Shown: piece by piece, positions 23,636 to 58,155 of the stretch
Numbering within the stretch: the first letter of the stretch is position 1
Layout: each line of letters starts with the position of its first letter
Origin: a virus
Taxonomy: Duplodnaviria; Heunggongvirae; Uroviricota; Caudoviricetes
Strand: one strand, 5' to 3'
IMG/VR virus record: IMGVR_UViG_3300032163_000007
Coordinates: 21,587 to 85,586 of that record
Length of the DNA stretch: 64,000 bases
The notes under the pieces: generated by a model
Seen by the model: only the letters and a program-made list of their open reading frames with translations
Database searches by the model: none
Told to the model about the DNA's origin: nothing
Made by a program: the position numbers and the translations under genes

Positions 23636-23648
23636 AGTACTTGAAACT

Positions 23649-24560: not shown

Positions 24561-24563
24561 AGC

Positions 24564-24638: not shown

Positions 24639-24641
24639 TTT

Positions 24642-24905: not shown

Positions 24906-24908
24906 AAT

Positions 24909-28658: not shown

Positions 28659-29799
28659 GAAGGACAATTTAATAATCAAAAGCTGGTGTGAGAATCCCGA
28701 GCAAGGTGCGCTGGACCAAGCATTCAATACAGCATCGGCTCCCTATATATTTAGACAAGTATGCCTAATGCCCGATACCCATCAAGGTTATGGCGTTCCC
28801 ATTGGGGGCGTAGTTGCGACTAAAGGAGTTATTCTTCCTGAAGCCGTAGGAGTTGACATTGGATGTGGGATGATCGCCGTAGAAACGAGTATTGACGTAC
28901 CCAGTGTTGATCAAATTAAGGCTGTGATGGGAAAGATTCGTGCAGTTATTCCTGTTGGAATGAATCACAGAGCAGATAAGTGCCCCATCTCTGCCATGCC
29001 TAGCATAGGAGACATCATCAGCAATGGTATCGTGGAACGAGAGTTTGAGTCAGCTAGAAAGCAACTTGGAACTCTTGGAAGCGGAAACCACTTCTTAGAA
29101 CTACAAAAGGATGCTAAAGGCAAGCTTTGGGTCATGATCCACAGCGGAAGCAGAAACATTGGATACAAGGTTGCAGAGCACTACATCGATGAAGCCAAGC
29201 TTCTGAATAAAATGTGGTACACAAACACTCCTGAAGAGATTTGTATGCTACCCGCTGACTCAGAACTAGGAATAGCCTATGCTGCTGAAATGCAATACTG
29301 CGTTGACTTCGCTCTGGCGAATCGAAAGATGATGCTTGATGACGTTATGGCTATTATCAGCCACGATCTAGGAGCTAGCTTCAAAGAGCCTATAAACATA
29401 GCGCATAACTATGCAGCTATTGAGCACCACTACGGAGAGAACGTAATAGTTCATCGCAAGGGTGCTACTAGAGCTAGACTCGGTGAATTAGGAATTATTC
29501 CTGGGAGTCAAGGAACAAAGTCGTATATTGTTGAGGGTCTCGGCAATCCTGAGAGCTTTCAAAGCTGCAGTCATGGTGCTGGGCGTACAATGGGCCGTAA
29601 AGAGGCTACACGAGTTTTAGATCTAGTTGCTGAGATTAAGATACTGGATGACCAAGGAATTGTTCACGGTATTAGAACTGCCAAGGACCTTGAAGAGGCT
29701 ACAAGTGCCTACAAGGACATCGATATAGTCATGGAAGAACAAAAGGATCTTGTTAAGATTGTTACTGAGTTGCTCCCTGTAGCAGTAATAAAGGGGTAA
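28645..29799 (+). CDS. rtcB: RtcB RNA 3'-phosphate/5'-OH ligase
   Basis: RtcB motifs PDTHQGYGVPIGG, GCGM, GSGNHF, HSGSRN, NYAAIEHH, HRKGAT, IPGSQG, SHGAGR. Confidence 0.85.
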   Translation: MKVFKKDNLIIKSWCENPEQGALDQAFNTASAPYIFRQVCLMPDTHQGYGVPIGGVVATKGVILPEAVGVDIGCGMIAVETSIDVPSVDQIKAVMGKIRAVIPVGMNHRADKCPISAMPSIGDIISNGIVEREFESARKQLGTLGSGNHFLELQKDAKGKLWVMIHSGSRNIGYKVAEHYIDEAKLLNKMWYTNTPEEICMLPADSELGIAYAAEMQYCVDFALANRKMMLDDVMAIISHDLGASFKEPINIAHNYAAIEHHYGENVIVHRKGATRARLGELGIIPGSQGTKSYIVEGLGNPESFQSCSHGAGRTMGRKEATRVLDLVAEIKILDDQGIVHGIRTAKDLEEATSAYKDIDIVMEEQKDLVKIVTELLPVAVIKG

Positions 29800-30022: not shown

Positions 30023-30321
30023 GTAACAAAGCCACCTATGAGGAGTTCAACATTAGGAAGTTTGGAGAGCCTTTTGTTGAGCACGTCAAGAAGCGCATGT
30101 ATCTCGAATTGGGTAAATTCTTAACTGGTAAGATTCCCATAGACGAGCGAAAGACTATTGATCCACGTGGCTTCGACGCCACAGAGTATTCAGTAAAAGC
30201 TATAGTTCTGAGTTGGGAGAAGTGGAAATACATCGAGGCGATGCTCAGGGGCATATCCATATCTGCGAATCAATATGAGACGGCGCACGAAATTATTAGA
30301 ATGACGAAAGAGGAGTTATAA
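30013..30321 (+). CDS. hypothetical protein
   Basis: Listed ORF. Confidence 0.35.
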   Translation: MQIGNKATYEEFNIRKFGEPFVEHVKKRMYLELGKFLTGKIPIDERKTIDPRGFDATEYSVKAIVLSWEKWKYIEAMLRGISISANQYETAHEIIRMTKEEL

Positions 30322-31562
30322 TGGCTGATATACTAATAGGTTTGCAGTTTGGTGACGAGGGTAAGGGTAAGATCACAGATATACTATCCAAAGACGTCGA
30401 TACGGTCATACGCTTTCAGGGTGGGGCCAATGCTGGACATACCATTGTAGTAGATGGCAAGGAGTACAAACTTCACATGGTTCCAAGTGGTATCATCCAG
30501 GGCAAGCAGTGCCTCATTGGAAATGGCTGCGTAGTGGATTTTGACCAGGTAGAAAAAGAGTTTGCCATGCTAACTGCTGCAGGCCATGACATCTCCCTAA
30601 TTAAGATCAGTAAACTAGCACACGTAGTTGTGCCAGAGTACAAGAAATTGGACTCCCAACAAGAGGAAGGCCGCACAAATAAAATAGGCACAACTCAAAG
30701 AGGTATTGGACCCACATATGAGGCTAAAATCGCTCGTCGTGGTATTCAAGTAGGAGAATGTTATGAGCCCTTCATTACTATGGACCGACTCAGAGCCACT
30801 CTTAGTGGGGTTTATTTAGATGAGGAAATTAGAGACATCGCCTATAGGCTCAGAGCGCAGACTGACAAACTTCAGAGTCACTTCGTTGATGGTATTGAGT
30901 TTGTACAGGCTCTATTAGAATCTAATCAGAGAATTCTCTTAGAGGGGGCTCAAGGAACTCTTCTTGACGTAGACTTTGGTAGTTATCCGTACGTCACATC
31001 ATCCTCAACTACTGCAGGCGGAGCCTGTACTGGCTCTGGAATTAGCCCTCTTCACATTGAAAATATCTGGGGAGTATTTAAGGCCTATGTGACTAGAGTT
31101 GGAGAAGGTCCTTTTGACACTGAAGATTGCAAGTATGGGCAAGAGCGCCCTGACGGTACCTTTGAAGACGCTGAAGCATATATCAGAGAAAAAGGCCATG
31201 AGTTCGGTACAACCACGGGACGTCCTCGTCGTATAGGTTGGTTGGACCTCCCCGCTCTTAAGAGAGCCATAGCCATCAACGGCTGCAATAGATTGGCTAT
31301 GATGAAGTTAGATGTCTTATCTGGACTAGATCTAATTAAGGTTTGCTACGATTATCTCGACAACCGCATCTACACTGACGAATGGACTCCGATGTATGAA
31401 GAGTTTGAAGGCTGGACAGAGGACATCAGTGGAATCACTAACTACTTTGAGTTACCCCTAAATGCTCAAAAACTTATAGTGTATATCGAGAATGAGATAG
31501 GTAGATCATTAGATATAATTAGTACAAGCAATGATAGGAGCAAGGTGATCAATCTTGACTAG
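30321..31562 (+). CDS. adenylosuccinate synthetase family protein (PurA homolog; candidate PurZ)
   Basis: 'GLQFGDEGKGKITD' and 'RFQGGANAGHT' are PurA P-loop and His motifs; full-length (413 aa). Confidence 0.8.
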   Translation: MADILIGLQFGDEGKGKITDILSKDVDTVIRFQGGANAGHTIVVDGKEYKLHMVPSGIIQGKQCLIGNGCVVDFDQVEKEFAMLTAAGHDISLIKISKLAHVVVPEYKKLDSQQEEGRTNKIGTTQRGIGPTYEAKIARRGIQVGECYEPFITMDRLRATLSGVYLDEEIRDIAYRLRAQTDKLQSHFVDGIEFVQALLESNQRILLEGAQGTLLDVDFGSYPYVTSSSTTAGGACTGSGISPLHIENIWGVFKAYVTRVGEGPFDTEDCKYGQERPDGTFEDAEAYIREKGHEFGTTTGRPRRIGWLDLPALKRAIAINGCNRLAMMKLDVLSGLDLIKVCYDYLDNRIYTDEWTPMYEEFEGWTEDISGITNYFELPLNAQKLIVYIENEIGRSLDIISTSNDRSKVINLD

Positions 31563-32231: not shown

Positions 32232-32322
32232 AGAAGCCTTCCAACAGGTATAGAGCTCCACAGTAACAGCTCAATATGTGAAAGCTAGGCTTGAGAAGGA
32301 AGCTGCTGAACCCAGAGACCCC

Positions 32323-32679
32323 ATGGACGAGGTGGTTCAGTATATTGTTGTACGCAAGGACCTCAACATGAGTAAAGGTAAGATGGCTGCACAAGTGGCA
32401 CATGCCAGCATTGCTACTGTCTATCCCTACCTATGGGACGCTGAGGTAAAGACATGGTTGGACAGGGCCTTCACAAAGATTATCTTAGAAGTAAAGAATC
32501 TAGCAGCTCTAGAAAAACTGGAACGTATGTGTATTGAGCGTCACATGGTGTTCAAGACAATAGTAGATAATGGCCGAACAGAGGTGGAGCCTAATACGCC
32601 CACATGCTTAGGGTTTAAGCCCTATAAAAAATCCCAGCTCGGTGACTTTCTCAAAAAGTACCAACTGTACAAAGATTAA
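32323..32679 (+). CDS. peptidyl-tRNA hydrolase, PTH2 family
   Basis: 'YIVVRKDLNMSKGKMAAQVAHAS' and 'DNGRTEVEPNTPTCLGFKP' match PTH2 conserved blocks; start set at the Met that gives a ~118-aa PTH2-sized product. Confidence 0.7.
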   Translation: MDEVVQYIVVRKDLNMSKGKMAAQVAHASIATVYPYLWDAEVKTWLDRAFTKIILEVKNLAALEKLERMCIERHMVFKTIVDNGRTEVEPNTPTCLGFKPYKKSQLGDFLKKYQLYKD

Positions 32680-34051: not shown

Positions 34052-34555
34052 ATGATCATAAGAAAAAGTTTTAAGTTAGAGATGGGTCATAGAGTAGTAG
34101 GTTCCTATACAACGGGATGCCAAAGCAATCACGGACATAGTGCCGTAGTGGAGCTGTTTTTAGAGGCTAAGACATTGGATCACACAGGAATGATTATTGA
34201 TTTTACTGAGGTTAAAGATCTTCTTGGAGACTTTTTCAACCAGTTCGATCACCGCACACTAGTATGGGACCAAGACGTTGAGTATTTGGAAGCTCTGGAG
34301 AAGCTAGGTTTTGCTCTCATGATAGTGCCTTATAACAGTACTGCAGAGAACATCAGTAAGCACATGTACCAGTTTGTTAGAGAAGCCCTTAAGAACCGCG
34401 TTAGAGTGGCAAGTGTGCGCTACCACGAAACTGTCACGGGTTATGCTGAATACTTTGTGGAAGACTACGACAGAGACGCCATGAACAACAACCTGTTTGA
34501 TCTCAGTCATGTGTTCTTGTCAGAAGCTACATGCATTAAGGAGTACCAACGATGA
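34052..34555 (+). CDS. queD: 6-carboxy-5,6,7,8-tetrahydropterin synthase QueD (PTPS family)
   Basis: 'EMGHRVVGSYTTGCQSNHGHS' (H..C..HGH zinc/catalytic motif); 'TGMIIDFTEVKDL'. Confidence 0.75.
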   Translation: MIIRKSFKLEMGHRVVGSYTTGCQSNHGHSAVVELFLEAKTLDHTGMIIDFTEVKDLLGDFFNQFDHRTLVWDQDVEYLEALEKLGFALMIVPYNSTAENISKHMYQFVREALKNRVRVASVRYHETVTGYAEYFVEDYDRDAMNNNLFDLSHVFLSEATCIKEYQR

Positions 34556-35220
34556 AAATAAATACAATATACCCAGCAATCGAAGGAGAGGGAGTCCGAG
34601 TAGGCACTCCTCAGCTATTCATCCGTACACAAGGATGTAGTATTGGATGTAAGAATTGTGACACTGTGGGATCTTGGAATCCTAACACAGGCACAGAAAT
34701 GTCAGTGAAAGAAATCTTTCAAAAGGTCATTGATAGTGGTCTTGACTCAATTAGCATCACCGGAGGCAACCCCCTAGAACAGGATCTCTACGACCTAGTG
34801 GGATTACTTCACCGAAGAAATTTTACAGTTAATATCGAGATCACTGGCCAAGACAATGACGAAGAGGTTCTTGACTTAGTAGACTTTATTAGTTGTGACA
34901 TCAAGACTCCGTCCACTGGGGTTACAGCTAATCTAGATATTATCGACGACATCTTAAAAAGCTATGGCCACTGCACACAGATCAAGTGCGTATGTGCTGA
35001 CCAAGCTGACTTAGACTTCATTATCGATTGTTACAACCGGTTCAAAGATAGACTTGATTACCATATGGTTATCACGCCTTGTTGGACAGAGCGCGCAAGT
35101 GCTGCTGATGTTGAGTTTATTGATCATATCATGAAAACTGTTATGGATAACAACTACCACATGCGAGTCATTGTACAACAGCATAAGCTACTCTTCGGAA
35201 GTAAACGCGGCGACGTATGA
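34552..35220 (+). CDS. queE: 7-carboxy-7-deazaguanine synthase QueE (radical SAM)
   Basis: 'LFIRTQGCSIGCKNCDT' matches the QueE CxxxCxxC-D motif; 'ITGGNPL'. Confidence 0.75.
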   Translation: MKINTIYPAIEGEGVRVGTPQLFIRTQGCSIGCKNCDTVGSWNPNTGTEMSVKEIFQKVIDSGLDSISITGGNPLEQDLYDLVGLLHRRNFTVNIEITGQDNDEEVLDLVDFISCDIKTPSTGVTANLDIIDDILKSYGHCTQIKCVCADQADLDFIIDCYNRFKDRLDYHMVITPCWTERASAADVEFIDHIMKTVMDNNYHMRVIVQQHKLLFGSKRGDV

Positions 35221-35357
35221 TTGAGCGTTTATTAAAGCAACTACCACTAAGCGTCAGGAGAAAGATATATGAGATCCTTCGCGAGGAGTTTGAGTGGACC
35301 AGAGAAAAGATTGATGCAGCAATAGACAAGATTATAGAGGAGAACCAACCAAAATGA
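35217..35357 (+). CDS. small hypothetical ORF (46 aa), overlaps the queE stop and the PRTase start
   Basis: Found by eye between listed ORFs. Confidence 0.25.
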   Translation: MIERLLKQLPLSVRRKIYEILREEFEWTREKIDAAIDKIIEENQPK

Positions 35358-35782
35358 ATGTTATTACTTGGAAGCAGTATTTAAAAGATATTGATAAATT
35401 GGCAAGTAAGATTACTGAGAAGTTTGATTACATCTGGGGCATTCCCAGAGGTGGGCTAATTCCTGCTGTAATCCTAGCTCACAAGCTTGATATTCCTCTC
35501 GTGTCTGATAGAAAGATGTTAAGCATGAGGAATGATTATAAGCTTCTAATTGTGGATGACCTCTACGAGACAGGTAAAGCTCTATGTGAGGCAATAGCAA
35601 TGCTACCTTCAAAGGTTAGCTGGAGATCTGCTGTAGTTTATACCAAAGCGGATAAAGAGATCGCACACTATTCTGGTCCTCTGATGGATAAAGATGCTTG
35701 GATTGTGTTTCCCTACGAAAAAGTAGAAAACGCTGAAACAGATAGTGTGGAATATCAATTAAGTCGAAAGGATAAAGTATGA
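35354..35782 (+). CDS. type I purine phosphoribosyltransferase (Gpt/XGPRT-like)
   Basis: 'WGIPRGGLIPAVILAHKLDIPLV' and PRPP motif 'LLIVDDLYETGKAL'; 142 aa, the size of E. coli Gpt. Confidence 0.6.
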   Translation: MNVITWKQYLKDIDKLASKITEKFDYIWGIPRGGLIPAVILAHKLDIPLVSDRKMLSMRNDYKLLIVDDLYETGKALCEAIAMLPSKVSWRSAVVYTKADKEIAHYSGPLMDKDAWIVFPYEKVENAETDSVEYQLSRKDKV

Positions 35783-44311: not shown

Positions 44312-45100
44312 ATGGGTACAGATATTAAGGTAGGAATTGGTTCAGTAGTGGTGGGGTTGGTTGTAATCGTAGCGATTATGATGGCCTTCTCCTCAGTTAA
44401 GTTCGTCGGTATTGGTCAGCGCGGAGTTGTGTTTAATAAGTTCAGCGGTGAGATTAGTCGTACATTGGGTCAAGGTGTTAACTTCGTTAATCCTATTACT
44501 GACAAAGTGAAGAAGTATGATGTTAAGGTCACCAAAGAGACTTATGAAATGGAAGGTCTGAGTTCAGACAGTCAAACAATCAAAGCTAAGATCGTAGTCA
44601 ACTACAAACTTCGCAGTGAAAAATTGATCAGTATTTACCAGAACATCCAGGGTGATATCTCTGAGACGGTTCTTGCCAATGCGGTTATTGATACCACTAA
44701 AGCAGAGCTTGGTAAGTTTACCATCGATAACATTGCTAAGAACAGAGAGAGTCTCAAGCTAGCTGTTGAAGATGCCCTCAAAAAGCGCATGTTCTCACAG
44801 GGTATTGATATTCAGAACGTAAGTATCACTGATGTTAACTTCAGTGCGGAATTTGAAAAGTCCATCCAGGACAAAATGATTGCAGAGCAGCAAGCTCTTC
44901 AAGCTAAGAACAATAAGGAAAAGGTTCGTTATGAATCTGAGGCCAAAGCCATTGAAAACGAAAAGATGGCACAGAGTATCAGCCCAATGGTTCTTCAGCA
45001 ACGTCTGATCGAGAAATGGGATGGTCACCTACCAACAACTATGTCTGGTGGTGGAACAGGTGCAATGAGCTTCCTAATGAATTTAGGTACAGCGAAGTAA
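44312..45100 (+). CDS. SPFH/band-7 (prohibitin/HflC-like) membrane protein
   Basis: N-terminal TM; SPFH core and C-terminal coiled coil 'AEQQALQAKNNKEKV'. Confidence 0.65.
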   Translation: MGTDIKVGIGSVVVGLVVIVAIMMAFSSVKFVGIGQRGVVFNKFSGEISRTLGQGVNFVNPITDKVKKYDVKVTKETYEMEGLSSDSQTIKAKIVVNYKLRSEKLISIYQNIQGDISETVLANAVIDTTKAELGKFTIDNIAKNRESLKLAVEDALKKRMFSQGIDIQNVSITDVNFSAEFEKSIQDKMIAEQQALQAKNNKEKVRYESEAKAIENEKMAQSISPMVLQQRLIEKWDGHLPTTMSGGGTGAMSFLMNLGTAK

Positions 45101-45120
45101 GTTACAGTAGTTAAGGTGGT

Positions 45121-45150
45121 GGTGATTAGAAGCAGGGGCACAAGCCCCTG
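45121..45150 (+). terminator. rho-independent terminator
   Basis: AGCAGGGGC-acaa-GCCCCTGCT followed by ATGGTTTTC. Confidence 0.6.
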
Positions 45151-45715
45151 CTATGGTTTTCACCGCATCAGATAAAAATAATTGTCAGCGGTGTCGTGAG
45201 ACACCCACAGTGTAGAGCATACGGCTGTGACTAAATAGGGGTAATATACATCCCCAAATAAGAATGATTGCAGGCCTGAAATGTCAGGAGGATGGACTAG
45301 AATGCTGTTATGCTCCCCATCCATAAATGGAAGCAACCGTGCTGACAATTAGAATATAGACGTGGGTGGTTTGCAACCTAGAAGCAATCAAGGCATCGCC
45401 TCTTAACAATGCGTACCCGGCCGAGTGATATGGTCTAAAGTGGCTATAGGCCACAATGATGGTTAAAGCGTATCACCTCCTACCAGTCGGCAGACTGGGC
45501 CCACGCTATCCTCTAAGGAGTTTGTAAGTGTCAATAGGTCAATGGTTTGTAGTGCTAATAGTTATTGAAAGTATTCTGGGTGGATTGTGCTTCGGCCTGA
45601 TGGAAGGTGATATAATTAGGGCACTGTACTGGATCCTCATTGGTATACTTAACGCTCTAACACTCTATATGAAATGATAATTAGAATAGTATGTTAGAAG
45701 GTGGGTGATTGTAGC

Positions 45716-45844
45716 ATGAAGAAAGTAGCAAGTATCGTATTGGTTATGGCAGTAGTGGTAGTCCTCATAGGATGCGCCCCTAAGGCAGCAGTTAGCGCAG
45801 AAGCAGTAACAGCAAACGCGGTAGTAACAGTAGACGCAAAATAA
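45716..45844 (+). CDS. small lipoprotein (42 aa)
   Basis: RBS AAGGTGG; signal peptide with lipobox 'VLIGC'; not in the ORF track (<60 aa). Confidence 0.45.
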   Translation: MKKVASIVLVMAVVVVLIGCAPKAAVSAEAVTANAVVTVDAK

Positions 45845-45858
45845 AAACAATGGTTTTG

Positions 45859-45886
45859 AGGAACCCCTGCGGGGGTTCCATTTTTA
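45859..45886 (+). terminator. rho-independent terminator
   Basis: GGAACCCC-tgc-GGGGGTTCC followed by ATTTTT. Confidence 0.75.
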
Positions 45887-45887
45887 G

Positions 45888-45961
45888 GCCCGGTTAGCAT
45901 AGAGGTCATGCAGCGGATTTGTAATCCGCCTACGGGGGTTCAAATCCCTCACTGGGCTCCA
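45888..45961 (+). tRNA. tRNA-Thr(TGT)
   Basis: D-arm GCAT-AGAGGTC-ATGC; anticodon arm GCGGA-TTTGTAA-TCCGC; T-arm GGGGG-TTCAAAT-CCCTC; CCA encoded. Confidence 0.8.
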
Positions 45962-45980: not shown

Positions 45981-46415
45981 ATGAATCAACACAAATACAC
46001 GATTGTCAGTGGAAGAAGCGGCAGTGGTAAATCCACGTTCGCCGAGCTCTTAGCTGCTCAATCAGGAGTCAAGCATATGGAAGTCTCAGATATAGCAAAA
46101 AGAATTCAGCTGGCTACAGGAGAAAACTTCTTTGACATCACAGCTCAGGAGATTTTCGAAGGGTTAATAGTTGAGCTTGGTGACGAGCCTGCAGTTATAT
46201 CGGGTATACGACAACCGGAGATATATGATCTGCTTGAAGCCGCCCTTAAAGATATCTATCACATCTACTTGGATGTACCTTATAAAGTAATCAGAGAACG
46301 CCTACTCGGAAGAGGGGGTGCCGATTACAACATTGATGCCAAGCTAGATATGGACAAGATTCTTGGGACCGAGAACCTTAGAGACAAAGCACACAAAGTA
46401 GTAGATTTTTCTTAA
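45981..46415 (+). CDS. P-loop kinase-like protein (nucleotide or polynucleotide kinase family)
   Basis: Walker A 'GRSGSGKST'; 144 aa. Confidence 0.4.
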   Translation: MNQHKYTIVSGRSGSGKSTFAELLAAQSGVKHMEVSDIAKRIQLATGENFFDITAQEIFEGLIVELGDEPAVISGIRQPEIYDLLEAALKDIYHIYLDVPYKVIRERLLGRGGADYNIDAKLDMDKILGTENLRDKAHKVVDFS

Positions 46416-46565
46416 CTAGTATAAAGGAGTAATCATGAGTTCCGATTGCGCGAAGTGTATCTTCAGTTTCGACAAGGAATTTTGCGACAGAGGAGGTTTG
46501 TGTGGAAGTTTTATACGTAGAAGCCCACAGACTGTAGGAAGTTTTAAAGAGAAAAAGGAGACAGT

Positions 46566-47360
46566 ATGTCAAAAGCAGTAAAGTTAGCGTTAATTACCCC
46601 AACGGTCTATCTAGATAAGTTTGCTAGCCAGGGGGATATACACTTGATCCTATCTCATCTGATAGGAGAGAACACCTACACTGAATACTACAGGAAGCAG
46701 AAGAAGCTCAAGATTATGGACAACGGTTTGTTTGAGAACCACGTTGCTGAGCCCACTACAGTACTTCTCAAGAAAGCTGAGATTGTTGGAGCTGATGTTA
46801 TTGTCGCTCCAGATGTATTATATGATTGTGATGCTACTCTTGCCGAGCTTGACAAATTCCAAGAAGCCATGGCAAAGTCTAAGAAGAAGTACAAGGTCTT
46901 TGGTGTGCCTCAGGGTAAGAACTTAGATGACTACCTGAGATGCCATCGTGGCATGTACCTGAGAGGGGTGGACTTCATAGGTCTGTCTATACTCGCCGTA
47001 CCAAAAGCCTTCAAAGAGATCACTGGCACCGACGACATCAGTCTCAACAGAATGGTATGTATGAACTATCTTGAGGACCAGAGGATGGTTTTTGATGGTA
47101 TCAAGTATCACTGCTTGGGTCTGGGCTCCTTTGCTGGAGAGATAGCTGTAATGGCTCAACACAAATGGGTATATAGCAATGACAGCTGCAGCTTCTTCCA
47201 AACTGCTAATGTTAGACAGCTACCATACTTTGGTGGGTATGTTGTGGGTGGCAAGCCTGAGGCAAAACTTGAATTTAATATGATGTTAATGGATAGTGGG
47301 AAAGAAGCTGTAGCCCAGAAAAACATTGAGACTCTCAAAAGATATGCACAAAGAGCTTAA
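46566..47360 (+). CDS. tRNA-guanine transglycosylase-like TIM-barrel protein (DpdA candidate, DNA 7-deazaguanine transglycosylase)
   Basis: TGT-like blocks 'IMDNGLFE' (~DSGGFQ), 'DVIVAPDVLYDCDAT' (~MAFDEC), 'VFGVPQGKNLDDYLRC' (~GIVQGG..DLR), 'GVDFIGLS', 'LGLG'; no CxCxxC zinc site. Confidence 0.45.
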   Translation: MSKAVKLALITPTVYLDKFASQGDIHLILSHLIGENTYTEYYRKQKKLKIMDNGLFENHVAEPTTVLLKKAEIVGADVIVAPDVLYDCDATLAELDKFQEAMAKSKKKYKVFGVPQGKNLDDYLRCHRGMYLRGVDFIGLSILAVPKAFKEITGTDDISLNRMVCMNYLEDQRMVFDGIKYHCLGLGSFAGEIAVMAQHKWVYSNDSCSFFQTANVRQLPYFGGYVVGGKPEAKLEFNMMLMDSGKEAVAQKNIETLKRYAQRA

Positions 47361-47389
47361 GTAAGTTTTTATTCTTTCTAGTTTTATTT
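47358..47389 (+). promoter_or_regulatory. promoter-like motif TAAGTAAGTTTTTATT-N-TCTAGTTTTAT
   Basis: Copy of the recurring motif. Confidence 0.45.
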
Positions 47390-49018
47390 ATGAAATTCGA
47401 TGAAACCGTTTATTTACACGTAAGAAATAGCTTTGTCACTATAAAGTGCGAGTATATTACTGCGTTCCAAAAGCTCAAGAGAGAGCTATCCTTTCGTCCC
47501 ATGGGCTACAACTATAGTCCTAAGTTTAAGAGTGGCATGTGGGATGGATATATTCAGTTTGTTAGAGGTGACAAATTGATGACTGGGCTTCTACCTCTAA
47601 TCATAGAGGCATGCAAAGCCAATAAGTATCCATATAAAATCATTGATGAGCGCAAGGACCCCCTTAAAGAGCTTAATGAAATCAACCTCAGTAATGGCAT
47701 TACTCTCAGAGATGATCAGTATGAGGCCGTAGCTGAGGTAATTCATAACAAGAGGGGCATTGTGGCAGCTGCTACAAACGCAGGCAAAACATATATTGCT
47801 ACGGGCCTATATAAAGCTACAGGCCTAAAGACTCTATTCCTTACACATCGTGAAGAGCTCTTTACTCAGACCGAAGAAACCTTTGAAGGCATGCTTGGAG
47901 AAAAGATTGGTCACATCTGGGACAAGGACAACGACCACAACTTCAAGCTGACCATTGGAATGGTTCCCACAATAGCTAGGCGTCTTGAGAATCCCGAAGA
48001 AACTCTAAAGGGCCTGAAGAAGAGACTACTCGATCATAGTATAGAGTTACGTAAAGCCTGTGATGTGTTGAATAAGGTTGCAGGTCCTATTGGGATTAAG
48101 ACTTACACAGCTAAAGTAAAGAAGATTGAAAGCAATATGAAGAGAGTGCAAACTTCAGTTACTAACCTCACAAACAATATGGCCGCAGAGATCCAGAGAT
48201 GGAAAGATCTCAATAAGTACCTCTCTGAAGTAGAGATGGTTATAGTGGATGAAGCGCATCATAGTAGTGCTGAGACTTATGAGGATATTCTCTTAAAGTG
48301 CGACAGTGCATTCTACCGAGTGGGATTAACAGGTACTCCTGACTCCAAGGACAAGGTCAAAGATCTAAAGCTGAGAGGTTTGTTGGGGGAGGTCATATAT
48401 ACTATATCCAATCAGGAACTGATCGAGCTTGGAGTGAGCTCCACACCTACGATACACTTCCTTACTACACGTAAGCCTATTGTTGCTTCAGATTATCAGA
48501 GTGCCTATAAGTTAGGAATTATCAAGAACAGTGAGCGCAATGATCACATTGTTGAGGTATGTAAGAAGAAGCTAGCAGACAACAAGCCAGTCCTAATTCT
48601 AATCAACCATACAGACCATGGAGACCACCTGCACGAGTACCTCCTCAGGAGTGGATTCAAAGCCGACGATGTGGCGTTCATTCATGGTGGAAGCGTTGAC
48701 AGCCATAGAAAGGCAAAATTGACGGCTTTCAAGGAGGGTAAGGTGCCTATACTAATAGCATCTCTCATCTTACAGGAAGGAGTCAGCGTAAATAGCATAG
48801 GAGCGTTGATATTTGCCTTAGGTGGTAAGTCAAACGTACGAGTGTTACAGATTGCAGGTCGTGCTCTACGACTTAATAACTATGGCAATAAGGTGGAGAT
48901 CTACGACTTTTTAGACTATGGAGATCAATACCTGAAAGAGCATAGTAAGGAGAGGTATAGCACATATAAGAAAAGCTTCGGAGTAGAAGCTTTTGCAGAA
49001 GGGACACCAGAAGTATGA
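47390..49018 (+). CDS. SF2 DEAH-box helicase (UvsW-like)
   Basis: Motif I 'ATNAGKTYIA'; motif II 'VDEAHH'; motif III 'GLTGTP'; motif VI 'QIAGRALR'. Confidence 0.65.
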   Translation: MKFDETVYLHVRNSFVTIKCEYITAFQKLKRELSFRPMGYNYSPKFKSGMWDGYIQFVRGDKLMTGLLPLIIEACKANKYPYKIIDERKDPLKELNEINLSNGITLRDDQYEAVAEVIHNKRGIVAAATNAGKTYIATGLYKATGLKTLFLTHREELFTQTEETFEGMLGEKIGHIWDKDNDHNFKLTIGMVPTIARRLENPEETLKGLKKRLLDHSIELRKACDVLNKVAGPIGIKTYTAKVKKIESNMKRVQTSVTNLTNNMAAEIQRWKDLNKYLSEVEMVIVDEAHHSSAETYEDILLKCDSAFYRVGLTGTPDSKDKVKDLKLRGLLGEVIYTISNQELIELGVSSTPTIHFLTTRKPIVASDYQSAYKLGIIKNSERNDHIVEVCKKKLADNKPVLILINHTDHGDHLHEYLLRSGFKADDVAFIHGGSVDSHRKAKLTAFKEGKVPILIASLILQEGVSVNSIGALIFALGGKSNVRVLQIAGRALRLNNYGNKVEIYDFLDYGDQYLKEHSKERYSTYKKSFGVEAFAEGTPEV

Positions 49019-49977
49019 CTAAACTAGACGAAGTATACCAGAGACTAGCACTGCCGAAGGAATTATCCTTTGTCCGGGACAACCTACTGTACATGGTACT
49101 AGCAGGCAGCCATGCCTATGGTACCAATACTGCAGAGTCTGACGAAGACTTCAGAGGAGTTTGTATAGCGCCTCTGAGATACTATATGACCAACCAAGGT
49201 TTTGAGCAGCGTGAGGATAAGACCAACGACATCACTGTGTACAGTATTAACAAGTTTTTTCAGTTGGCTTCTGAAGTCAACCCGAATATCATTGAACTGC
49301 TTTTTATTGATCCCAAAGAGGCTGTTTATGTGCATCCTCTAATGGAGGAAATTCTCAAGAAGAAAGATATGTTTCTCAGCAGAAAGGCCGAGCACACCTT
49401 CTTAGGATATGCCTATGCACAGCTACAGCGTATTAGAACGCATAAGAAGTGGCTTGATAAGCCTCTGACGCAGCCAAAGCGTGAAGATTTCGGCTTGGAG
49501 CCAGTTCCACGTATAGCACATGAGAAGATCAAGGCGTTTTACACCCTTGGAGCTGACTGCTACAACATGGTAGGCAGTGACTTTGGTGACTATTTACGTA
49601 GGGAAGATGCATTCAACACGGCTCAAAGCTCATGGGATAAGTATAACGGCTGGCAAAAGAGCCGAAATCCTAAGAGATTCGAGTTAGAGAAGGCTTATTC
49701 CTACGATGTTAAGCATGGTATGCACCTTTGCCGTCTGCTATGTATGGCAGAAGAGATTGCTGTGGAGCGGACTATTAAAGTTAGACGTCCAGATGCAGAG
49801 TTCCTCTTAGATATTCGCAATGGCAAGTTCACGTATGAGGAAATCCTCCAATGGGCTGCTGATAAAGAGGCGAGAGTTAAAGCTGCGTTTGAGAGGAGCA
49901 GCCTCCCATGGGGTGTAAATCATGAGGCAATCAACTCCCTTTTAGAGAATACTCTAAGAAGTTTCTTTGGAATCTGA
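49015..49977 (+). CDS. nucleotidyltransferase-fold protein (Pol beta superfamily)
   Basis: 'LAGSHAYGTNTAESDEDFRGVCI' (GS...D.D signature). Confidence 0.5.
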   Translation: MTKLDEVYQRLALPKELSFVRDNLLYMVLAGSHAYGTNTAESDEDFRGVCIAPLRYYMTNQGFEQREDKTNDITVYSINKFFQLASEVNPNIIELLFIDPKEAVYVHPLMEEILKKKDMFLSRKAEHTFLGYAYAQLQRIRTHKKWLDKPLTQPKREDFGLEPVPRIAHEKIKAFYTLGADCYNMVGSDFGDYLRREDAFNTAQSSWDKYNGWQKSRNPKRFELEKAYSYDVKHGMHLCRLLCMAEEIAVERTIKVRRPDAEFLLDIRNGKFTYEEILQWAADKEARVKAAFERSSLPWGVNHEAINSLLENTLRSFFGI

Positions 49978-50016: not shown

Positions 50017-50808
50017 ATGATTAAAACTGAAGAAGAAAAAAGGAAGATCTACGCAAAGATCTCAGCAACAAAGAGAACTCCTGAGGGCAGGAAGAGACAC
50101 GCTGAGGCCTTAAGGAAGTCAAAGGAGAAGTGGAAACAGACAAGAGCTAGAAATAAAAAACCAGCACATAATAAGCTACCTGATACAGCGAAAGTCAAGA
50201 AAGTGTGCTTAAATTGTGGTAAAGAGATGCTTGTACTGCCCTGCTATTCAGAAACTAAGCACTTTTGCAGCAGACTATGTGTGACCCTATACAGAAAGGG
50301 AAGGGTTCATGAGGGGTATAACCTTAACAGCCATCATGACAAGGGTCGTTGGGGAATTATAGGTAGATACCAGGGCATTCTATTTAGAAGCCTTCTAGAG
50401 CTCTCGTTTATTACAAAAAAACTAAAAGAGAGCCAAAGCCTGCAGTCAGAACCCTTTTCTATAGTGCTTCAAGACTATTTACAGGAAGGAGAGTTTAAGG
50501 CCTTTAGTATAAAACCTAGTACTCTATACTTTCCCGATTTCCTCGTAGATGGTACTCTTCTTGTGGAGATTAAGCCTAGCAACCAGGTGAGCCAGAATCT
50601 TAATCAAGCAAAGACGTTAGCTGCACAAAGATACTGTGATACGAGAGGCCTCAAGTATCAGTTGCTCACTGAGCACGACATCGATCCTCAATACTACTAT
50701 AATACAATGAAGTTCGTATCCCAGAGTCCAAAGGAGGATTTCGTTTGGTATAAAAAGCCTACTAATAAGAGGCTAATCAAACAGTTTAACATGGAGGGAA
50801 AATTATGA
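50017..50808 (+). CDS. putative homing endonuclease: zinc-ribbon N-region + PD-(D/E)xK-like C-terminal domain
   Basis: 'CLNCGKEM...FCSRLCVTLY' matches the HEG repeat family; 'FPDFLVDG...LVEIKP' looks like a D..E.K nuclease core. Confidence 0.45.
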   Translation: MIKTEEEKRKIYAKISATKRTPEGRKRHAEALRKSKEKWKQTRARNKKPAHNKLPDTAKVKKVCLNCGKEMLVLPCYSETKHFCSRLCVTLYRKGRVHEGYNLNSHHDKGRWGIIGRYQGILFRSLLELSFITKKLKESQSLQSEPFSIVLQDYLQEGEFKAFSIKPSTLYFPDFLVDGTLLVEIKPSNQVSQNLNQAKTLAAQRYCDTRGLKYQLLTEHDIDPQYYYNTMKFVSQSPKEDFVWYKKPTNKRLIKQFNMEGKL

Positions 50809-51374: not shown

Positions 51375-51539
51375 ATGGATCAGATCACAATAGTAGCATA
51401 TTCACATGGGGAAACGACGAGAGTTAGCTTTCCTGATGACGCAGATATCTACGAACTCGCAGAAAAGTTCAGAGTGATTGCATTGGGTTTAGGCTACCAT
51501 AATGAGAATATCAAAGAGATTCTCCCAGAAGCGGAATAA
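51375..51539 (+). CDS. small hypothetical ORF (54 aa)
   Basis: RBS AGGAGG; fills the gap before nrdG. Confidence 0.3.
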   Translation: MDQITIVAYSHGETTRVSFPDDADIYELAEKFRVIALGLGYHNENIKEILPEAE

Positions 51540-52237
51540 TGAAGGGCTGGCAAAAGACAAGTCTTATTGATTTTGGGGACGAGATAGTTTCGATGTTTTT
51601 CTATGGAGGCTGTAACTTTAGGTGTCCTTTTTGTCACAACAGGGATCTGGTGCTTAATCCGGACAGTTTGCCGGATATCGCCGAAAGCGATGCATTCCAG
51701 TATCTCAGTGACAAAAGAAAGATATACGATGGGGTCGTTATAAGTGGTGGGGAACCTACACTTGACCCCCGTATCGCTGAGATCTGTGGGATGTTTAAGA
51801 GGTCCGGCTTTACAATAAAACTGGACACAAATGGAAGTAGACCCGAAGTACTTAAGAGCTTGGTTGACGCCAAGCTGGTTGATTACGTTGCGATGGACAT
51901 CAAAACATCGCTTACTAAGTACCCACAGGCTGCACCTTTTATTGCTGCCGAGGATCTTGTAGCTGATGTCAAGCAGTCTGTGGGTTTTCTGATAAATGGC
52001 AAAGTGGATTACGAGTTCCGGTCTACCATATATCCTCCTTGGTTTGAAGCCGAGGACTGGGAGGAGATAGCTGAGTGGCTCAAAGGAGCCAAGCGCTACT
52101 ACTTACAGCAGTTCAATCCCAAGAATACTTTGGATCCCGAAGCTACGAAGGTAATTCCTCACAGAAAAGACTATCTAGAGATTAGAGCTGAGTATTTATC
52201 AGGATTTATGGATCTCTGCGAAGTCCGACTCATCTAA
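51539..52237 (+). CDS. nrdG: anaerobic ribonucleotide reductase activating protein NrdG (radical SAM)
   Basis: 'GGCNFRCPFCHN' CxxxCxxC cluster; 'ISGGEPTLDP'; NrdD is present in the same genome. Confidence 0.7.
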   Translation: MKGWQKTSLIDFGDEIVSMFFYGGCNFRCPFCHNRDLVLNPDSLPDIAESDAFQYLSDKRKIYDGVVISGGEPTLDPRIAEICGMFKRSGFTIKLDTNGSRPEVLKSLVDAKLVDYVAMDIKTSLTKYPQAAPFIAAEDLVADVKQSVGFLINGKVDYEFRSTIYPPWFEAEDWEEIAEWLKGAKRYYLQQFNPKNTLDPEATKVIPHRKDYLEIRAEYLSGFMDLCEVRLI

Positions 52238-52268: not shown

Positions 52269-53723
52269 ATGAAATACAATTTATACCCACAGCATCAGCA
52301 CGATTTTTTAGCCAGACTAGATACTAGCGTAAAAGCTAGAGGTGGTAACCTATTCTTTGTTGGTGGTTGTGTTCGAGATGCCCTTCGTGGTAATTCAAAT
52401 CCCAGCGATACTGATATTCTGGTAGTTCGAATCACTGATGAGCAGTTTAGAGAGGCTCTAGAAGAGTTTAAGAATACTCCATCATTTTCAACCATTACCT
52501 ACGACTTTGTAGGTAAGAGCTTCGGCGTGTACAAAGTTAGTGTGACTTCAAAAGTTGAGGGAGATTACTTCATCGGTAATGGTGTCAGTAGTGTTATTGA
52601 CTTTGCATTCCCCCGTAAAGAGGTAAGTACTGGTGACGGCCACAGAGACTTTGAGAATGAGTTTGATCCATTTATGCCCATCGAAGAAGACCTAGCACGT
52701 AGAGATTTTACTATGAACGCCATTGCTATCAGCTTTGATGGTAAGACCATCGTTGACCCCTTCAAAGGAAGAACTGACATTAACAAAGGCATACTACGAA
52801 GCATTGGCACTAATTCTATCAGTGAGGACTACTTGAGAGCGCTTCGAGGTGTTCAGTTCGTAGCTAGGTTTAACCTCTATATCAATGCTGATACTCTGAA
52901 GCAGATTCAAGACAATGTGTACCTAATTGATACTATTTCTGAGGATCGTATCCGCCAGGAACTGGCGAAGCTGCTTAAGGCTCCATTTGTTCATAGAGGG
53001 TTTGAACTCCTCAAGAATACTGGGTTGTTACAAGCCATTTGTGAGCCTCTATACAATTGCAACGCAAACAACAACTACAACTGGTTGCATCACAAGTACA
53101 ATACATACTGCCATACCATTCAAGCCATTGACAATTTGTCAAGAACCTGTGATCCTGTGGTAGCAGTTGCAGCAATGCTCCATGACATTGGAAAGCCTCT
53201 AACTGAGAGCGTAGATGAGTATGGAATCTATCACAACTACCGCCACGAAGAGGCTAGTGTAAAACTGGCCAAGGTTTGGCTGGAAAGCTACCACTACAGT
53301 AATGACGACACCGAACAGATCTTATGGCTGATTGCCAATCATATGGGACAACCTCATAGAGAGGCTAGTCCAGGACGACGCAAGCAGATCAAGAAGCTGC
53401 TGAGATCAGCTAAAGATAAGTCATGGGTAATCAACCTATTCCTACTAAAACAAGCAGACTCAAACGCCAGCCTGGACTTTGTTCATACCAATGAGGTCAT
53501 GGACTGGATCTCTACGATGACTGATATCATTGAGCAGCAAGAGGCATTCTCACTTAAAGACCTACAGGTGCATGGCTTTGATATGCTGGAACTTGGGCTT
53601 AAGGGACCAGCTATTGGTCACATGCTTAACAAGCTACTCACTGACGTAATTGAGGGAGACATTGTCAACGAAAGAGATGCTCTACTGGACTACGTGAAAG
53701 TTACCCAACTGGTTGTAGTATGA
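52269..53723 (+). CDS. cca: CCA-adding tRNA nucleotidyltransferase with C-terminal HD domain
   Basis: Head motif 'FVGGCVRDALRG...DTDILV'; 'RRDFTMNA'; HD motif 'AAMLHDIGKP'. Confidence 0.75.
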   Translation: MKYNLYPQHQHDFLARLDTSVKARGGNLFFVGGCVRDALRGNSNPSDTDILVVRITDEQFREALEEFKNTPSFSTITYDFVGKSFGVYKVSVTSKVEGDYFIGNGVSSVIDFAFPRKEVSTGDGHRDFENEFDPFMPIEEDLARRDFTMNAIAISFDGKTIVDPFKGRTDINKGILRSIGTNSISEDYLRALRGVQFVARFNLYINADTLKQIQDNVYLIDTISEDRIRQELAKLLKAPFVHRGFELLKNTGLLQAICEPLYNCNANNNYNWLHHKYNTYCHTIQAIDNLSRTCDPVVAVAAMLHDIGKPLTESVDEYGIYHNYRHEEASVKLAKVWLESYHYSNDDTEQILWLIANHMGQPHREASPGRRKQIKKLLRSAKDKSWVINLFLLKQADSNASLDFVHTNEVMDWISTMTDIIEQQEAFSLKDLQVHGFDMLELGLKGPAIGHMLNKLLTDVIEGDIVNERDALLDYVKVTQLVVV

Positions 53724-57099: not shown

Positions 57100-58155
57100 A
57101 TGAAAAAGAGCATGGGATACACAGAAGACACAAAGATCCTTACAGAGGATGGTTGGAGGTGGGTTAAAGATCTGGAGAGTGGGTGCATGGTCCACACCCT
57201 CGACTATCAGGGGCAACTATGTGTAACTCCGGTTCAAAAAGTTATATGTGAGGAATACTCTGGAGAAGTTCTCCATTTGAAGTCTTCAAAGATAGACCTG
57301 GATATAGGGGCCCTCCAACCTCTCTTTGTGAGAACAGAGAATAAAAGTCCTTTACATGTGCCCGCTCAGGATGTAACTCATAAGCATATTTTTCTAAAGG
57401 GAGCTCAAATCCCTGAAATTATGGCTGAGCAGATTGTTGGGTTGCCGTCAGTGGTTGATGGCGGGTTCCTAAAAAGAGTTGTTGCAGAGAGATATCTAGA
57501 TACGAACCAGTTTCTACTTTTCTTAGGACTTTGGGTAACGGATGGGTCTATCCGATTAACCGGTAGAGCTGGAAATCAGGTTAGAATATCCCAAGTTAAA
57601 CCTTCCGTCAGAGCTGTGATAGATAAACTTCTAGCTGCCTTAGACTTTAAGTACTCTTATAGTTGCAAAAGCTACTACATGTACTCTAAACAACTTTTCT
57701 GCTTCCTTCGGGAGCAGTTCATAAAAAATAACGACCCTAAAAAAGGATATTACGTTAGTATCCCTTTATGGATAAAAAAGATGCACGCGTTACACTTAGA
57801 GCATTTAGTAAAGGGGTTAATGCTTGGAGATGGAAGATTAGAGCCTAACTGCGAGTACAGTGGGTACCTTACAACAGCTTCGGAGGCTCTAGCTGAAGAT
57901 TTCGCAGAGATAGCCTTAAAGATGGGAAGATGCGCAACAATCCGGAAGAAGGGAGTGGGTATGGTTCATAGTAAGCAGAAAGTTCCCTACTACTTTGTGT
58001 CTCTTCTTAAACCTATTACACACTACGCAAGGACTACGCAAGTCTTAAGCAAATTTTATAGTGGTCCTCTATACAGTATATTTCTAGATGGCCAGAAACC
58101 TGTATATATAATGCAAAAAGGTAAAACTTTATGGGGAGGTACAAATGGCGAATGA
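57100..58155 (+). CDS. free-standing LAGLIDADG homing endonuclease with an intein-like (Hint) N-terminal segment
   Basis: 'LFLGLWVTDGS' and 'LVKGLMLGDGRL' LAGLIDADG motifs; N-terminal 'DTKILTEDGWRWVKDL' resembles intein block A; no C-terminal HN splice junction. Confidence 0.6.
   Translation: MKKSMGYTEDTKILTEDGWRWVKDLESGCMVHTLDYQGQLCVTPVQKVICEEYSGEVLHLKSSKIDLDIGALQPLFVRTENKSPLHVPAQDVTHKHIFLKGAQIPEIMAEQIVGLPSVVDGGFLKRVVAERYLDTNQFLLFLGLWVTDGSIRLTGRAGNQVRISQVKPSVRAVIDKLLAALDFKYSYSCKSYYMYSKQLFCFLREQFIKNNDPKKGYYVSIPLWIKKMHALHLEHLVKGLMLGDGRLEPNCEYSGYLTTASEALAEDFAEIALKMGRCATIRKKGVGMVHSKQKVPYYFVSLLKPITHYARTTQVLSKFYSGPLYSIFLDGQKPVYIMQKGKTLWGGTNGE

What the first reader, a model, noticed from the sequence alone, without database searches (positions are those of the whole stretch)
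46566..49977. TGT-like (DpdA candidate) gene next to an SF2 helicase and a nucleotidyltransferase
The 264-aa protein has the TGT TIM-barrel blocks, including 'DVLYDCDAT' aligned to the catalytic Asp motif, but lacks the zinc-binding CxCxxC. This is expected for DNA-acting DpdA rather than tRNA Tgt. It is 9 kb away from the queD/queE/folE2 island. It is followed by a DEAH helicase and a Pol-beta-type NTase; bacterial dpd clusters also contain helicases.
Basis: inference. Interest (0 to 1): 0.6.

Follow-up and report, generated by a model that had tools for sequence, protein, structure and literature searches.

The report
Phage DpdA3 7-deazaguanine DNA transglycosylase
The 264-aa gene is a real but already-known kind of phage enzyme (DpdA3) that most likely swaps guanine in the phage's DNA for 7-deazaguanine to evade host restriction; the helicase and nucleotidyltransferase next to it belong to unrelated replication and RNA-repair modules.

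The parts
46566..47360 (+). DpdA3-family guanine transglycosylase: a minimal TGT-fold TIM barrel of 264 aa with no Zn subdomain. Predicted catalytic residues are D52 (acid/base), D83 (base binding), Q116 and D206 (nucleophile).
45981..46415 (+). Small P-loop (AAA_18, NMP-kinase-like) protein directly upstream. It belongs to the kinase family that directly precedes DpdA3 in phiST, MA9V-3, L012 and L089.
   Evidence: Pfam AAA_18. The profile of the DpdA3-adjacent kinases hits only this ORF in the window, E 5.6e-12. Adjacency shown.
38261..38740 (+). DpdL homolog (proposed 7-carboxy-7-deazaguanine decarboxylase, a QueD paralog) with the motif LKNEHRHMF = LxxxHRHxF.
   Evidence: Sequence. tblastn hits the phiST and ACP17 DpdL loci. 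phmmer vs phiST CGPG_00067 gives 6e-12. Motif definition from PMC10516641.
36810..37625 (+). GTP cyclohydrolase IB (FolE2), first step of 7-deazaguanine synthesis.
   Evidence: PF02649, E 5.4e-72.
35354..35782 (+). Xanthine-guanine-PRTase-like phosphoribosyltransferase embedded in the que operon.
   Evidence: PF00156. NCBIfam xanthine PRTase 1.6e-14, below cutoff. PDB purine/XG PRTases. Gpt-type motifs conserved. Sits next to FolE in 11 of 13 loci.
34552..35220 (+). QueE (7-carboxy-7-deazaguanine synthase, radical SAM).
   Evidence: Pfam Fer4_12 and Radical_SAM. The best NCBIfam hits are four QueE models, E 4e-29 to 4e-19.
34052..34555 (+). QueD (6-carboxytetrahydropterin synthase) with the CxxxHGH signature (CQSNHGH).
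   Evidence: PF01242, E 1.6e-25. TIGR03367. Sequence.
47390..49018 (+). UvsW-like SF2 DEAH helicase. A neighbour inside the flagged interval, judged NOT part of the modification system.
   Evidence: UvsW_N, ResIII and Helicase_C. phrog_16 DNA helicase. DpdE/DpdF scores negligible. Near DpdA3 in 1 of 80 loci.
49015..49977 (+). RlaP-family Pol-beta nucleotidyltransferase. A neighbour inside the flagged interval, judged part of the phage's RNA-repair gene set and NOT of the modification system.
   Evidence: PF10127, E 2.7e-22. phrog_388. Near DpdA3 in 0 of 80 loci. RtcB, Ro/TROVE and a CCA enzyme are in the same window.

Best explanation
ORF 46566-47360 encodes a DpdA3-subfamily guanine transglycosylase. 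It is the last step of a phage pathway that replaces guanine in the phage's own DNA with 7-deazaguanine. The inferred pathway is: GTP -> (FolE2) dihydroneopterin triphosphate -> (QueD) CPH4 -> (QueE) 7-carboxy-7-deazaguanine -> (DpdL) 7-deazaguanine. DpdA3 then exchanges the base for guanine by the TGT double-displacement mechanism. In that mechanism D206 is the nucleophile that forms a covalent enzyme-deoxyribose intermediate, D52 is the general acid/base, and D83 and Q116 read the Watson-Crick edge. The expected product is 2'-deoxy-7-deazaguanosine (dDG) DNA, probably at very high substitution, which protects the genome from restriction enzymes. Shown here: fold, family membership, conserved catalytic residues, gene content and neighbourhood statistics. 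Inferred: substrate (DG rather than CDG), DNA as the acceptor, extent of replacement, and the protective role. The adjacent UvsW-like helicase and RlaP NTase are unrelated neighbours.
Confidence: 0.78

Rival explanations
1. Nucleotide-pool (pre-replicative) route. The deazaguanine base is turned into a nucleotide, either by the Gpt-like PRTase (TubE/ToyH-like) or by DpdA3 exchanging the base on dGMP/dGTP. The adjacent NMP-kinase-like protein phosphorylates it and the phage polymerase incorporates it. In this reading DpdA3 is not a DNA transglycosylase.
For: DpdA3 phages show 100% replacement (PMC10516641), which is typical of pool-level pathways. A P-loop NMP-kinase-like gene directly precedes DpdA3 in 5 lineages, and dNMP/thymidylate kinases sit close downstream of DpdA3 in D479 (adjacent) and immuto (two genes away). 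A PRTase is embedded in the que operon in 13 of 80 loci, the window and immuto. MazG or DUF1599 'nucleotide modification' genes sit in phiST, immuto and L008-L011. DpdA3 lacks bDpdA's DNA-binding insertions and Zn domain.
Against: No TGT-family enzyme is known to act on free nucleotides. The PRTase keeps the Gpt-type acidic residue, Lys and Trp expected for an N7-bearing 6-oxopurine, which fits guanine salvage better. The PRTase is present in only a minority of loci and the kinase in a subset. The field's current view is post-replicative insertion (PMC10516641).
Confidence: 0.12
2. It is a tRNA-guanine transglycosylase that modifies position 34 of phage- or host-encoded GUN-anticodon tRNAs, not DNA.
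For: The window encodes 19 tRNAs, including the classical TGT substrates Tyr(GTA), Asp(GTC) and Asn(GTT). It also holds many translation and RNA-repair genes. The fold is TGT-like.
Against: The best structural match is DNA-acting bDpdA, not tRNA TGT. The protein belongs to DpdA3, whose phages carry the modified base in DNA at ~100% (PMC10516641). It lacks the Zn subdomain present in all tRNA TGTs (PMC10164549). The DpdL route yields unsubstituted 7-deazaguanine, which to my knowledge has not been reported in tRNA. Whether the other DpdA3 loci also carry tRNA genes was not checked.
Confidence: 0.04
3. One reading: DpdA, the SF2 helicase and the Pol-beta NTase form one functional dpd-like module, analogous to bacterial dpd islands that contain helicases.
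For: The genes are tightly packed and co-oriented (29-bp gap, then a 4-bp overlap). The helicase adjacency is kept in the 61%-identical sister contig L088. Bacterial dpdD-K do include helicase-like proteins (PMC10164549).
Against: The helicase is near DpdA3 in 1 of 80 loci and the NTase in 0 of 80. The helicase is UvsW-type and sits in a genome with gp32, a RecA/UvsX-like protein, gp46/47-like proteins, RuvC and a ligase. DpdE/DpdF scores are 14.7 and 15.8 bits. Bacterial Dpd helicases belong to the restriction half of that system, not the modification half. RlaP goes with RtcB, Ro and CCA RNA-repair genes, which are present here.
Confidence: 0.03
4. Cap10-like nucleobase-protein conjugation: the TGT-fold enzyme attaches a 7-deazaguanine to a protein rather than to a nucleic acid.
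Against: Cap10 ranks 13th, below generic TIM barrels. No CD-NTase or Cap9 context is present. DpdA3 phages have modified DNA.
Confidence: 0.02

Closest known systems
DpdA3 subfamily (Cellulophaga phage phiST CGPG_00065, Flavobacterium phage immuto DpdA, Campylobacter phage CP220; Hutinet et al. 2023, PMC10516641)
   Same: About 260-aa minimal TGT fold with no Zn motif, undetectable by Pfam TGT. Full-length profile match (1e-71 and 1e-49). TM 0.85 to the phiST model. Co-encoded with FolE, QueD and QueE, and in the phiST type with DpdL, a preceding P-loop kinase and no QueC.
   Different: Only 22-25% identical to the named members. Uses FolE2 instead of FolE. The cluster is split by ~7.8 kb of RNA-repair and tRNA genes. 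No MazG. The host phage is a ~172-kb deep-branching lineage (TerL ~35% identical to SPO1-like phages).
Bacterial DpdA (Salmonella Montevideo, PDB 7UI4), the DNA preQ0 insertase of the Dpd R-M system
   Different: 413 aa against 264 aa. bDpdA has four insertions and a conserved CxCx2Cx22H Zn site, needs the ParB-like ATPase DpdB, inserts preQ0 at <0.1% of G, and is part of an R-M island. None of these features is present here, and there is no hit to the PADLOC DpdA models.
tRNA-guanine transglycosylases (bacterial Tgt, archaeal ArcTGT; PF01702)
   Same: (beta/alpha)8 fold and motif order: D-x3-F, D, Q-G, LxGxG, D. Double-displacement chemistry is inferred.
   Different: No N-terminal beta-lid, no Zn subdomain and no C-terminal tRNA-binding domains. 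No Pfam hit. 10-14% identity.
DpdA4 / DUF6610 (PF20314; Halovirus HVTV-1 HVTV1_69)
   Same: Another divergent viral DpdA group. 5 of 121 relatives of the window protein hit DUF6610 (best E 3e-6).
   Different: The window protein itself does not hit DUF6610. DpdA4 is reported as specific to archaeal viruses and linked to preQ1.
DpdL (phiST CGPG_00067, Acidovorax phage ACP17), for ORF 38261-38740
   Same: QueD-paralog T-fold protein with LxxxHRHxF. Co-occurs with DpdA3 and excludes QueC.
   Different: Carries a ~45-residue N-terminal extension. Its activity is unproven in any system.

Membership tests
DpdA3 subfamily | Sequence homology to the founding members (phiST CGPG_00065, immuto DpdA3) | tested here: met
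DpdA3 subfamily | Structural equivalence to a founding member | tested here: met
   BFVD top hit is phiST M4SLA5: TM 0.85/0.86, rmsd 2.6 A, E 1.2e-15.
DpdA3 subfamily | Genomic association with 7-deazaguanine biosynthesis genes | tested here: met
   The window has FolE2, QueD, QueE and DpdL. Across 80 loci the counts are QueC 63, QueD 54, QueE 48 and FolE 40.
DpdA3 subfamily | Complete replacement of G by a 7-deazaguanine in virion DNA | not testable with these tools
   Requires LC-MS/MS of phage DNA. The phage is known only as a metagenomic contig.
TGT/DpdA superfamily | TGT-type (beta/alpha)8 fold | tested here: met
TGT/DpdA superfamily | Three invariant active-site aspartates (Zm D102/D156/D280; bDpdA D95/D130/D256) | tested here: met
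   D52, D83 and D206 align to them in extended hhalign and are invariant or >=90% conserved in the family. All lie at C-terminal ends of predicted beta-strands. The alignment itself is statistically weak.
TGT/DpdA superfamily | Significant match to the PF01702 profile | tested here: not met
   No hit at E<=1 for the window protein. Only 2 of 121 relatives reach E 0.006. hhalign vs a Tgt alignment gives E 0.02-0.06.
TGT/DpdA superfamily | Structural Zn site CxCxxC...H | tested here: not met
   Absent in the window protein and in 0 of 121 relatives. It is conserved in TGTs and bDpdA (PMC10164549).
Bacterial Dpd modification/restriction system | bDpdA-type protein | tested here: not met
   No PADLOC DpdA hit for the window protein or for the phiST and immuto DpdA3s.
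Bacterial Dpd modification/restriction system | DpdB (ParB-like ATPase) partner | not tested
   No dedicated search for a ParB-like or DpdB protein was run. None of the window ORFs scanned with Pfam returned a ParB-type domain, and the ORFs next to the DpdA3 gene are a P-loop kinase and a UvsW-like helicase.
Bacterial Dpd modification/restriction system | Dpd helicases (DpdE/F/J) | tested here: not met
   Helicase vs NCBIfam DpdE scores 14.7 bits (cutoff 500). Against PADLOC DpdF it scores 15.8 bits, E 1e-3. It matches UvsW_N above the Pfam cutoff.
DpdL (CDG decarboxylase, proposed) | LxxxHRHxF motif replacing QueD's CxxxHGH, and homology to phiST CGPG_00067 | tested here: met
   LKNEHRHMF in ORF 38261-38740. 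phmmer gives 6e-12 to CGPG_00067. tblastn hits the phiST and ACP17 loci.
DpdL (CDG decarboxylase, proposed) | Occurs with DpdA, FolE, QueD and QueE but without QueC | tested here: met
   0 of 6 DpdL loci have QueC, and the window has no QueC. Caveat: 108 kb of the contig were not seen.
UvsW helicase (for ORF 47390-49018) | UvsW N-terminal domain plus SF2 core | tested here: met
   PF21241 at 34.8 bits (cutoff 25.3), ResIII 83 bits, Helicase_C 41 bits.
RlaP NTase (for ORF 49015-49977) | PF10127 match and RNA-repair gene context | tested here: met
   PF10127 at 80 bits (cutoff 23). RtcB, TROVE/Ro and a CCA enzyme are in the window.

The most novel reading that the evidence does not exclude
DpdA3 does not work alone. 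Together with the conserved NMP-kinase-like P-loop protein just upstream and the Gpt-like PRTase inside the que operon, it forms a closed purine loop that makes total G replacement possible. There are two versions. (a) Guanine sink: the PRTase and kinase convert the guanine released by each exchange back to GMP/GTP. This removes the competing base and refuels FolE. (b) The base is installed at nucleotide level, before replication. In that case DpdA3 would be the first TGT-fold enzyme acting on free nucleotides. The DpdA papers I could search mention neither component.
Probability: 0.15. Interest if true: 0.7.

Novelty: new member of a known kind. Interest (0 to 1): 0.35.

Why it matters
It adds a deep-branching ~172-kb uncultured phage to the set predicted to carry fully 7-deazaguanine-substituted DNA. 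Such DNA resists many restriction enzymes and is relevant to sequencing and cloning artefacts and to biotechnology. The census shows that the DpdA3 family is very large (thousands of 50%-identity clusters), yet the standard profile libraries (Pfam, NCBIfam, PADLOC) miss it, so routine annotation will not flag these phages. The split into DpdL-linked and QueC-linked clades, with a switch at position 141 in the loop aligned to the TGT 7-substituent loop, gives a testable specificity determinant. The kinase and PRTase partners point to experiments that could explain why DpdA3 alone reaches 100% replacement and why it has resisted heterologous reconstitution.

Tried and rejected
1. Pfam, NCBIfam and PADLOC scans of the 264-aa protein gave no hits, and PHROGs gave only an unknown-function family.
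2. phmmer and profile searches against PDB sequences found no TGT.
3. Megablast of 8 kb against phages found no match.
4. tblastn of E. coli Tgt against phages returned only bacterial-type Tgt, no DpdA1/2.
5. The search for related loci with the 121-sequence alignment failed because it had no conserved stretch. The 6-sequence alignment worked.
6. The Tgt homologs collected for a profile were all >=83% identical, so profile-profile significance stayed poor, and global hhalign was meaningless.
7. The second radical-SAM gene (51539-52237) was considered as a second QueE and rejected. It is NrdG (165 bits, above cutoff) and pairs with NrdD at 13193-16261.
8. The PurA-like gene was considered as PurZ (Z-genome) and rejected. 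It matches bacterial PurA at 1e-93 over the full length, against ~1e-14 partial matches to PurZ.
9. The small Cys-rich ORF 46435-46581 was considered as a detached zinc module. It is not conserved in relatives.
10. The AAA_28 protein 38942-39556 is not related to the DpdA3-adjacent kinases.
11. No MazG, DUF1599, QueF, DpdN or QueC relatives were found in the window.
Full report
OBSERVATION. The flagged interval holds three co-oriented ORFs: 46566-47360 (264 aa), 47390-49018 (542 aa) and 49015-49977 (320 aa). The window is part of a 171,862-bp ENA metagenome contig, and the gene lies at about 147 kb on it. The contig is clearly a large tailed phage. Essentially all long ORFs lie on the + strand, and there are 19 tRNAs, a terminase, a portal, gp32, a RecA/UvsX-like protein, a FEN, Mre11/Rad50-like proteins, NrdD/NrdG and a ligase. 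Its terminase is only ~35% identical to those of SPO1-like Bacillus phages, and megablast finds no close relative. 'DVLYDCDAT' is residues 83-91. The protein has five Cys and no CxCxxC. The helicase carries DEAH at residue 287. QueD, QueE and FolE2 are real, and FolE2 ends 8,941 bp upstream.

WHAT THE 264-aa PROTEIN IS. HMMER-level profile searches fail. There is no Pfam hit at E<=1, no NCBIfam hit, no PADLOC Dpd hit and no PDB sequence hit. PHROGs gives only an unknown-function family.

tblastn against phages, however, finds weak full-length matches. One is the annotated 'DNA guanine transglycosylase DpdA' of Flavobacterium phage immuto. Hutinet et al. 2023 place that protein in a new subfamily, DpdA3, together with Cellulophaga phiST CGPG_00065 and Campylobacter CP220. 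DpdA3 was detectable only by HHpred and is associated with 100% G replacement (PMC10516641).

An exhaustive profile search shows that the window protein belongs to a very large family: 4,527 representative clusters at E<=1e-3, nearly all ~260 aa. An HMM built from 139 of these relatives hits phiST CGPG_00065 at 6.5e-71 and immuto DpdA3 at 4.9e-49 over the full length.

ACTIVE SITE. hhalign of the family against E. coli Tgt is not statistically significant (E 0.02-0.06), because I could only build a shallow Tgt profile. Its extended alignment nevertheless pairs the following, without any guidance:
- LDNGxFE with TDSGGFQ: D52 = Ec D89 = Zm D102 = bDpdA D95. F56 matches the stacking Phe99.
- APD with FDE: D83 = Ec D143 = Zm D156 = bDpdA D130.
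- VPQG with IIQG: Q116 = Zm Q203 = bDpdA H181.
- HLLGLG with YLMGVG.
- SNDS with MFDC: D206 = Ec D264 = Zm D280 = bDpdA D256.
D52 and D206 are invariant, and D83 and Q116 are >=90% conserved, in 121 sequences. All sit at the C-terminal ends of predicted strands. In bDpdA, D95A and D256A abolish exchange (PMC10164549).

ZINC. [quoted passage not shown] Zinc loss (0 of 121 members have the motif) is a property of the minimal DpdA3 type.

PATHWAY AND PREDICTED BASE.
- ORF 34052-34555 has QueD's CxxxHGH signature (CQSNHGH).
- ORF 38261-38740 carries LKNEHRHMF, exactly the LxxxHRHxF signature given for DpdL, the proposed CDG decarboxylase. It matches phiST CGPG_00067 (6e-12) and the ACP17 locus.
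- A QueC HMM built from 63 viral QueCs finds nothing in the six-frame translation of the window.
- In 80 IMG/VR loci encoding relatives, unbiased clustering of neighbours gives QueC in 63, QueD in 54, QueE in 48 and FolE in 40, all on the same strand.
- The six loci closest to the window protein are exactly the six with DpdL, and none of them has QueC.
- In an NJ tree the DpdL-linked proteins (window, D479, RHph_I1_18, L008-L012, phiST, MA9V-3) group together. They differ from the QueC-linked majority at four positions. These include S141 (100%) against N (81%), in the beta6 loop that I align to the loop that reads the 7-substituent in TGTs, and L85 against W, next to D83. L031 is an exception.
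- phiST, with the same gene set, carries dDG at 100%.
The best prediction is therefore a pathway from GTP to 7-deazaguanine, inserted by DpdA3 to give dDG DNA. Insertion of CDG cannot be excluded. The second radical-SAM gene at 51539 is NrdG, not QueE.

HELICASE AND NTase. The helicase matches UvsW_N, ResIII and Helicase_C. It sits in a genome with a T4-like recombination set. Its scores against DpdE (14.7 bits, cutoff 500) and DpdF (15.8 bits) reflect generic SF2 similarity. The NTase is RlaP (PF10127), named in Pfam as an RNA-repair-pathway Pol-beta NTase. The window also encodes RtcB, a Ro/TROVE protein, a CCA-adding enzyme, PTH2 and a GGQ release-factor-like protein. Within 10 kb of DpdA3 relatives, a helicase homolog occurs in 1 of 80 loci and the NTase in 0 of 80. 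Only the 61%-identical sister contig keeps the helicase next door (57% identical), which is inherited gene order. Bacterial Dpd helicases belong to the restriction half of that system (PMC10164549). The cluster reading is not supported.

CONSERVED PARTNERS THAT WERE NOT FLAGGED.
(i) Kinase. ORF 45981-46415, 150 bp upstream, is an AAA_18, NMP-kinase-like P-loop protein. Homologous proteins immediately precede DpdA3, often overlapping its start codon, in phiST (CGPG_00066), MA9V-3, L012 and the contig of P0004. A profile of those proteins picks this ORF as its only hit in the window (E 5.6e-12). In L008-L011 the same slot holds a DUF1599 'nucleotide modification associated domain 1' protein.
(ii) PRTase. 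A 142-aa PRTase (35354-35782) lies between QueE and FolE2, and immuto has the same arrangement. In 13 of 80 loci a homolog is present, directly after FolE in 11 of them. It is closest to xanthine-guanine PRTases. It keeps the Gpt-type DDxx(D/E)TG loop, the Lys and the WIxxPW Trp. The functional roles of those residues are recalled from the Gpt/HGPRT literature and were not verified here.
The 2023 DpdA3 paper contains no occurrence of 'phosphoribosyl', and full-text searches found no paper linking a PRTase to DpdA.
My inference, which is untested: each exchange frees one guanine, about 74,000 per genome (0.43 x 171,862). The PRTase and kinase may recycle that guanine to GTP for FolE and remove the competing base, which would help drive replacement to completion. 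The alternative is a pre-replicative nucleotide route. I give that family of ideas ~15%.

COMPARISON AND NOVELTY. This works like, and is a member of, the DpdA3 subfamily, and its companion is a DpdL. It is not a bacterial-type DpdA and not part of a Dpd R-M system. It differs from the named DpdA3 phages in four ways: low identity (22-25%), FolE2 instead of FolE (seen in 1 of 80 related loci), a cluster split by ~7.8 kb of RNA-repair and tRNA genes, and no MazG. DpdA3 and DpdL biochemistry remains unproven anywhere. Verdict: a correct and useful annotation of a new member of a known kind, of moderate-to-low surprise, with one worthwhile lead in the kinase and PRTase partners.

Noticed in passing
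window 30321-31562 (+): Full-length adenylosuccinate synthetase gene (PF00709, E 1.6e-142) 2.5 kb upstream of QueD. It was checked as a possible PurZ (2-aminoadenine genome). It matches bacterial PurA at E~1e-93 and ~40% identity over the full length, against only ~1e-14 partial matches to PurZ structures, so it is a PurA-type metabolic gene.
   Followed up: partly
window 35354-35782 (+); L010, L027, L028, L036, L045, L050, L065, L069, L074, L079, L080: A Gpt-like phosphoribosyltransferase is embedded in the 7-deazaguanine operon: directly after FolE in 11 of 13 viral loci, and between QueE and FolE(2) in the window and in phage immuto. Its role is unknown. It could salvage guanine or make a deazaguanine nucleotide.
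   Followed up: partly
window 45981-46415 (+); L003 7329-7808; L005 8342-8812; L012 9558-10001; L089 208-753: A small AAA_18, NMP-kinase-like P-loop protein directly precedes DpdA3 in five separate lineages (four confirmed DpdL-type; L089 is too short to tell). A DUF1599 (NMAD1) protein occupies the same slot in L008-L011. The ENA gene call (112 aa) starts downstream of the P-loop; the 144-aa ORF is more likely correct.
   Followed up: partly
window 46435-46581 (+): A 48-aa Cys-rich ORF (CxxC-x8-C-x5-C) with a strong RBS, whose stop overlaps the DpdA3 start. It is not found upstream of the 61%-identical homolog or in phiST or L012, so it is probably not a conserved partner.
   Followed up: partly
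window 28603-29799, 32278-32679, 40484-40849, 41298-42755, 49015-49977, 52269-53723, plus 19 tRNAs at 21433-24985 and 43175-45961: A large RNA-repair and translation-rescue gene set: RtcB ligase, PTH2, a GGQ-motif release-factor/ArfB-like protein (by eye: GGNGGQKVQKTE), Ro60/TROVE, the RlaP NTase and a CCA-adding enzyme with an HD domain, alongside many tRNAs. It suggests a counter-defence against tRNA- or RNA-targeting host nucleases.
   Followed up: no
window 13193-16261 (+) and 51539-52237 (+): Anaerobic RNR NrdD (1,022 aa, Pfam match in two stretches, so possibly carrying an insertion or intein) and its activase NrdG, 35 kb apart. They suggest an anaerobic or facultative host.
   Followed up: no
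window 50017-50808, 57100-58155, 23772-24419, 39643-40497: Several probable homing or mobile endonuclease genes (TnsA-like N-terminal domain, LAGLIDADG, HNH, and a Zn-finger-rich ORF) are scattered among the metabolic genes. They may explain why the que cluster is split.
   Followed up: no
window 36810-37625 (+): The pathway starts with FolE2 (GTP cyclohydrolase IB) rather than the FolE used in almost all related loci (FolE2 in 1 of 80, FolE in 40 of 80).
   Followed up: partly
L031 (IMGVR_UViG_3300033151_000594): Its DpdA3 groups with the DpdL-type clade and has the S141/L85/I10 signature, yet the locus encodes QueC. It is a possible intermediate or dual-pathway phage.
   Followed up: no
window 10812-11936 (+): A phage-encoded sigma-70 family factor (regions 2 and 4) lies right after the terminase gene.
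   Followed up: no
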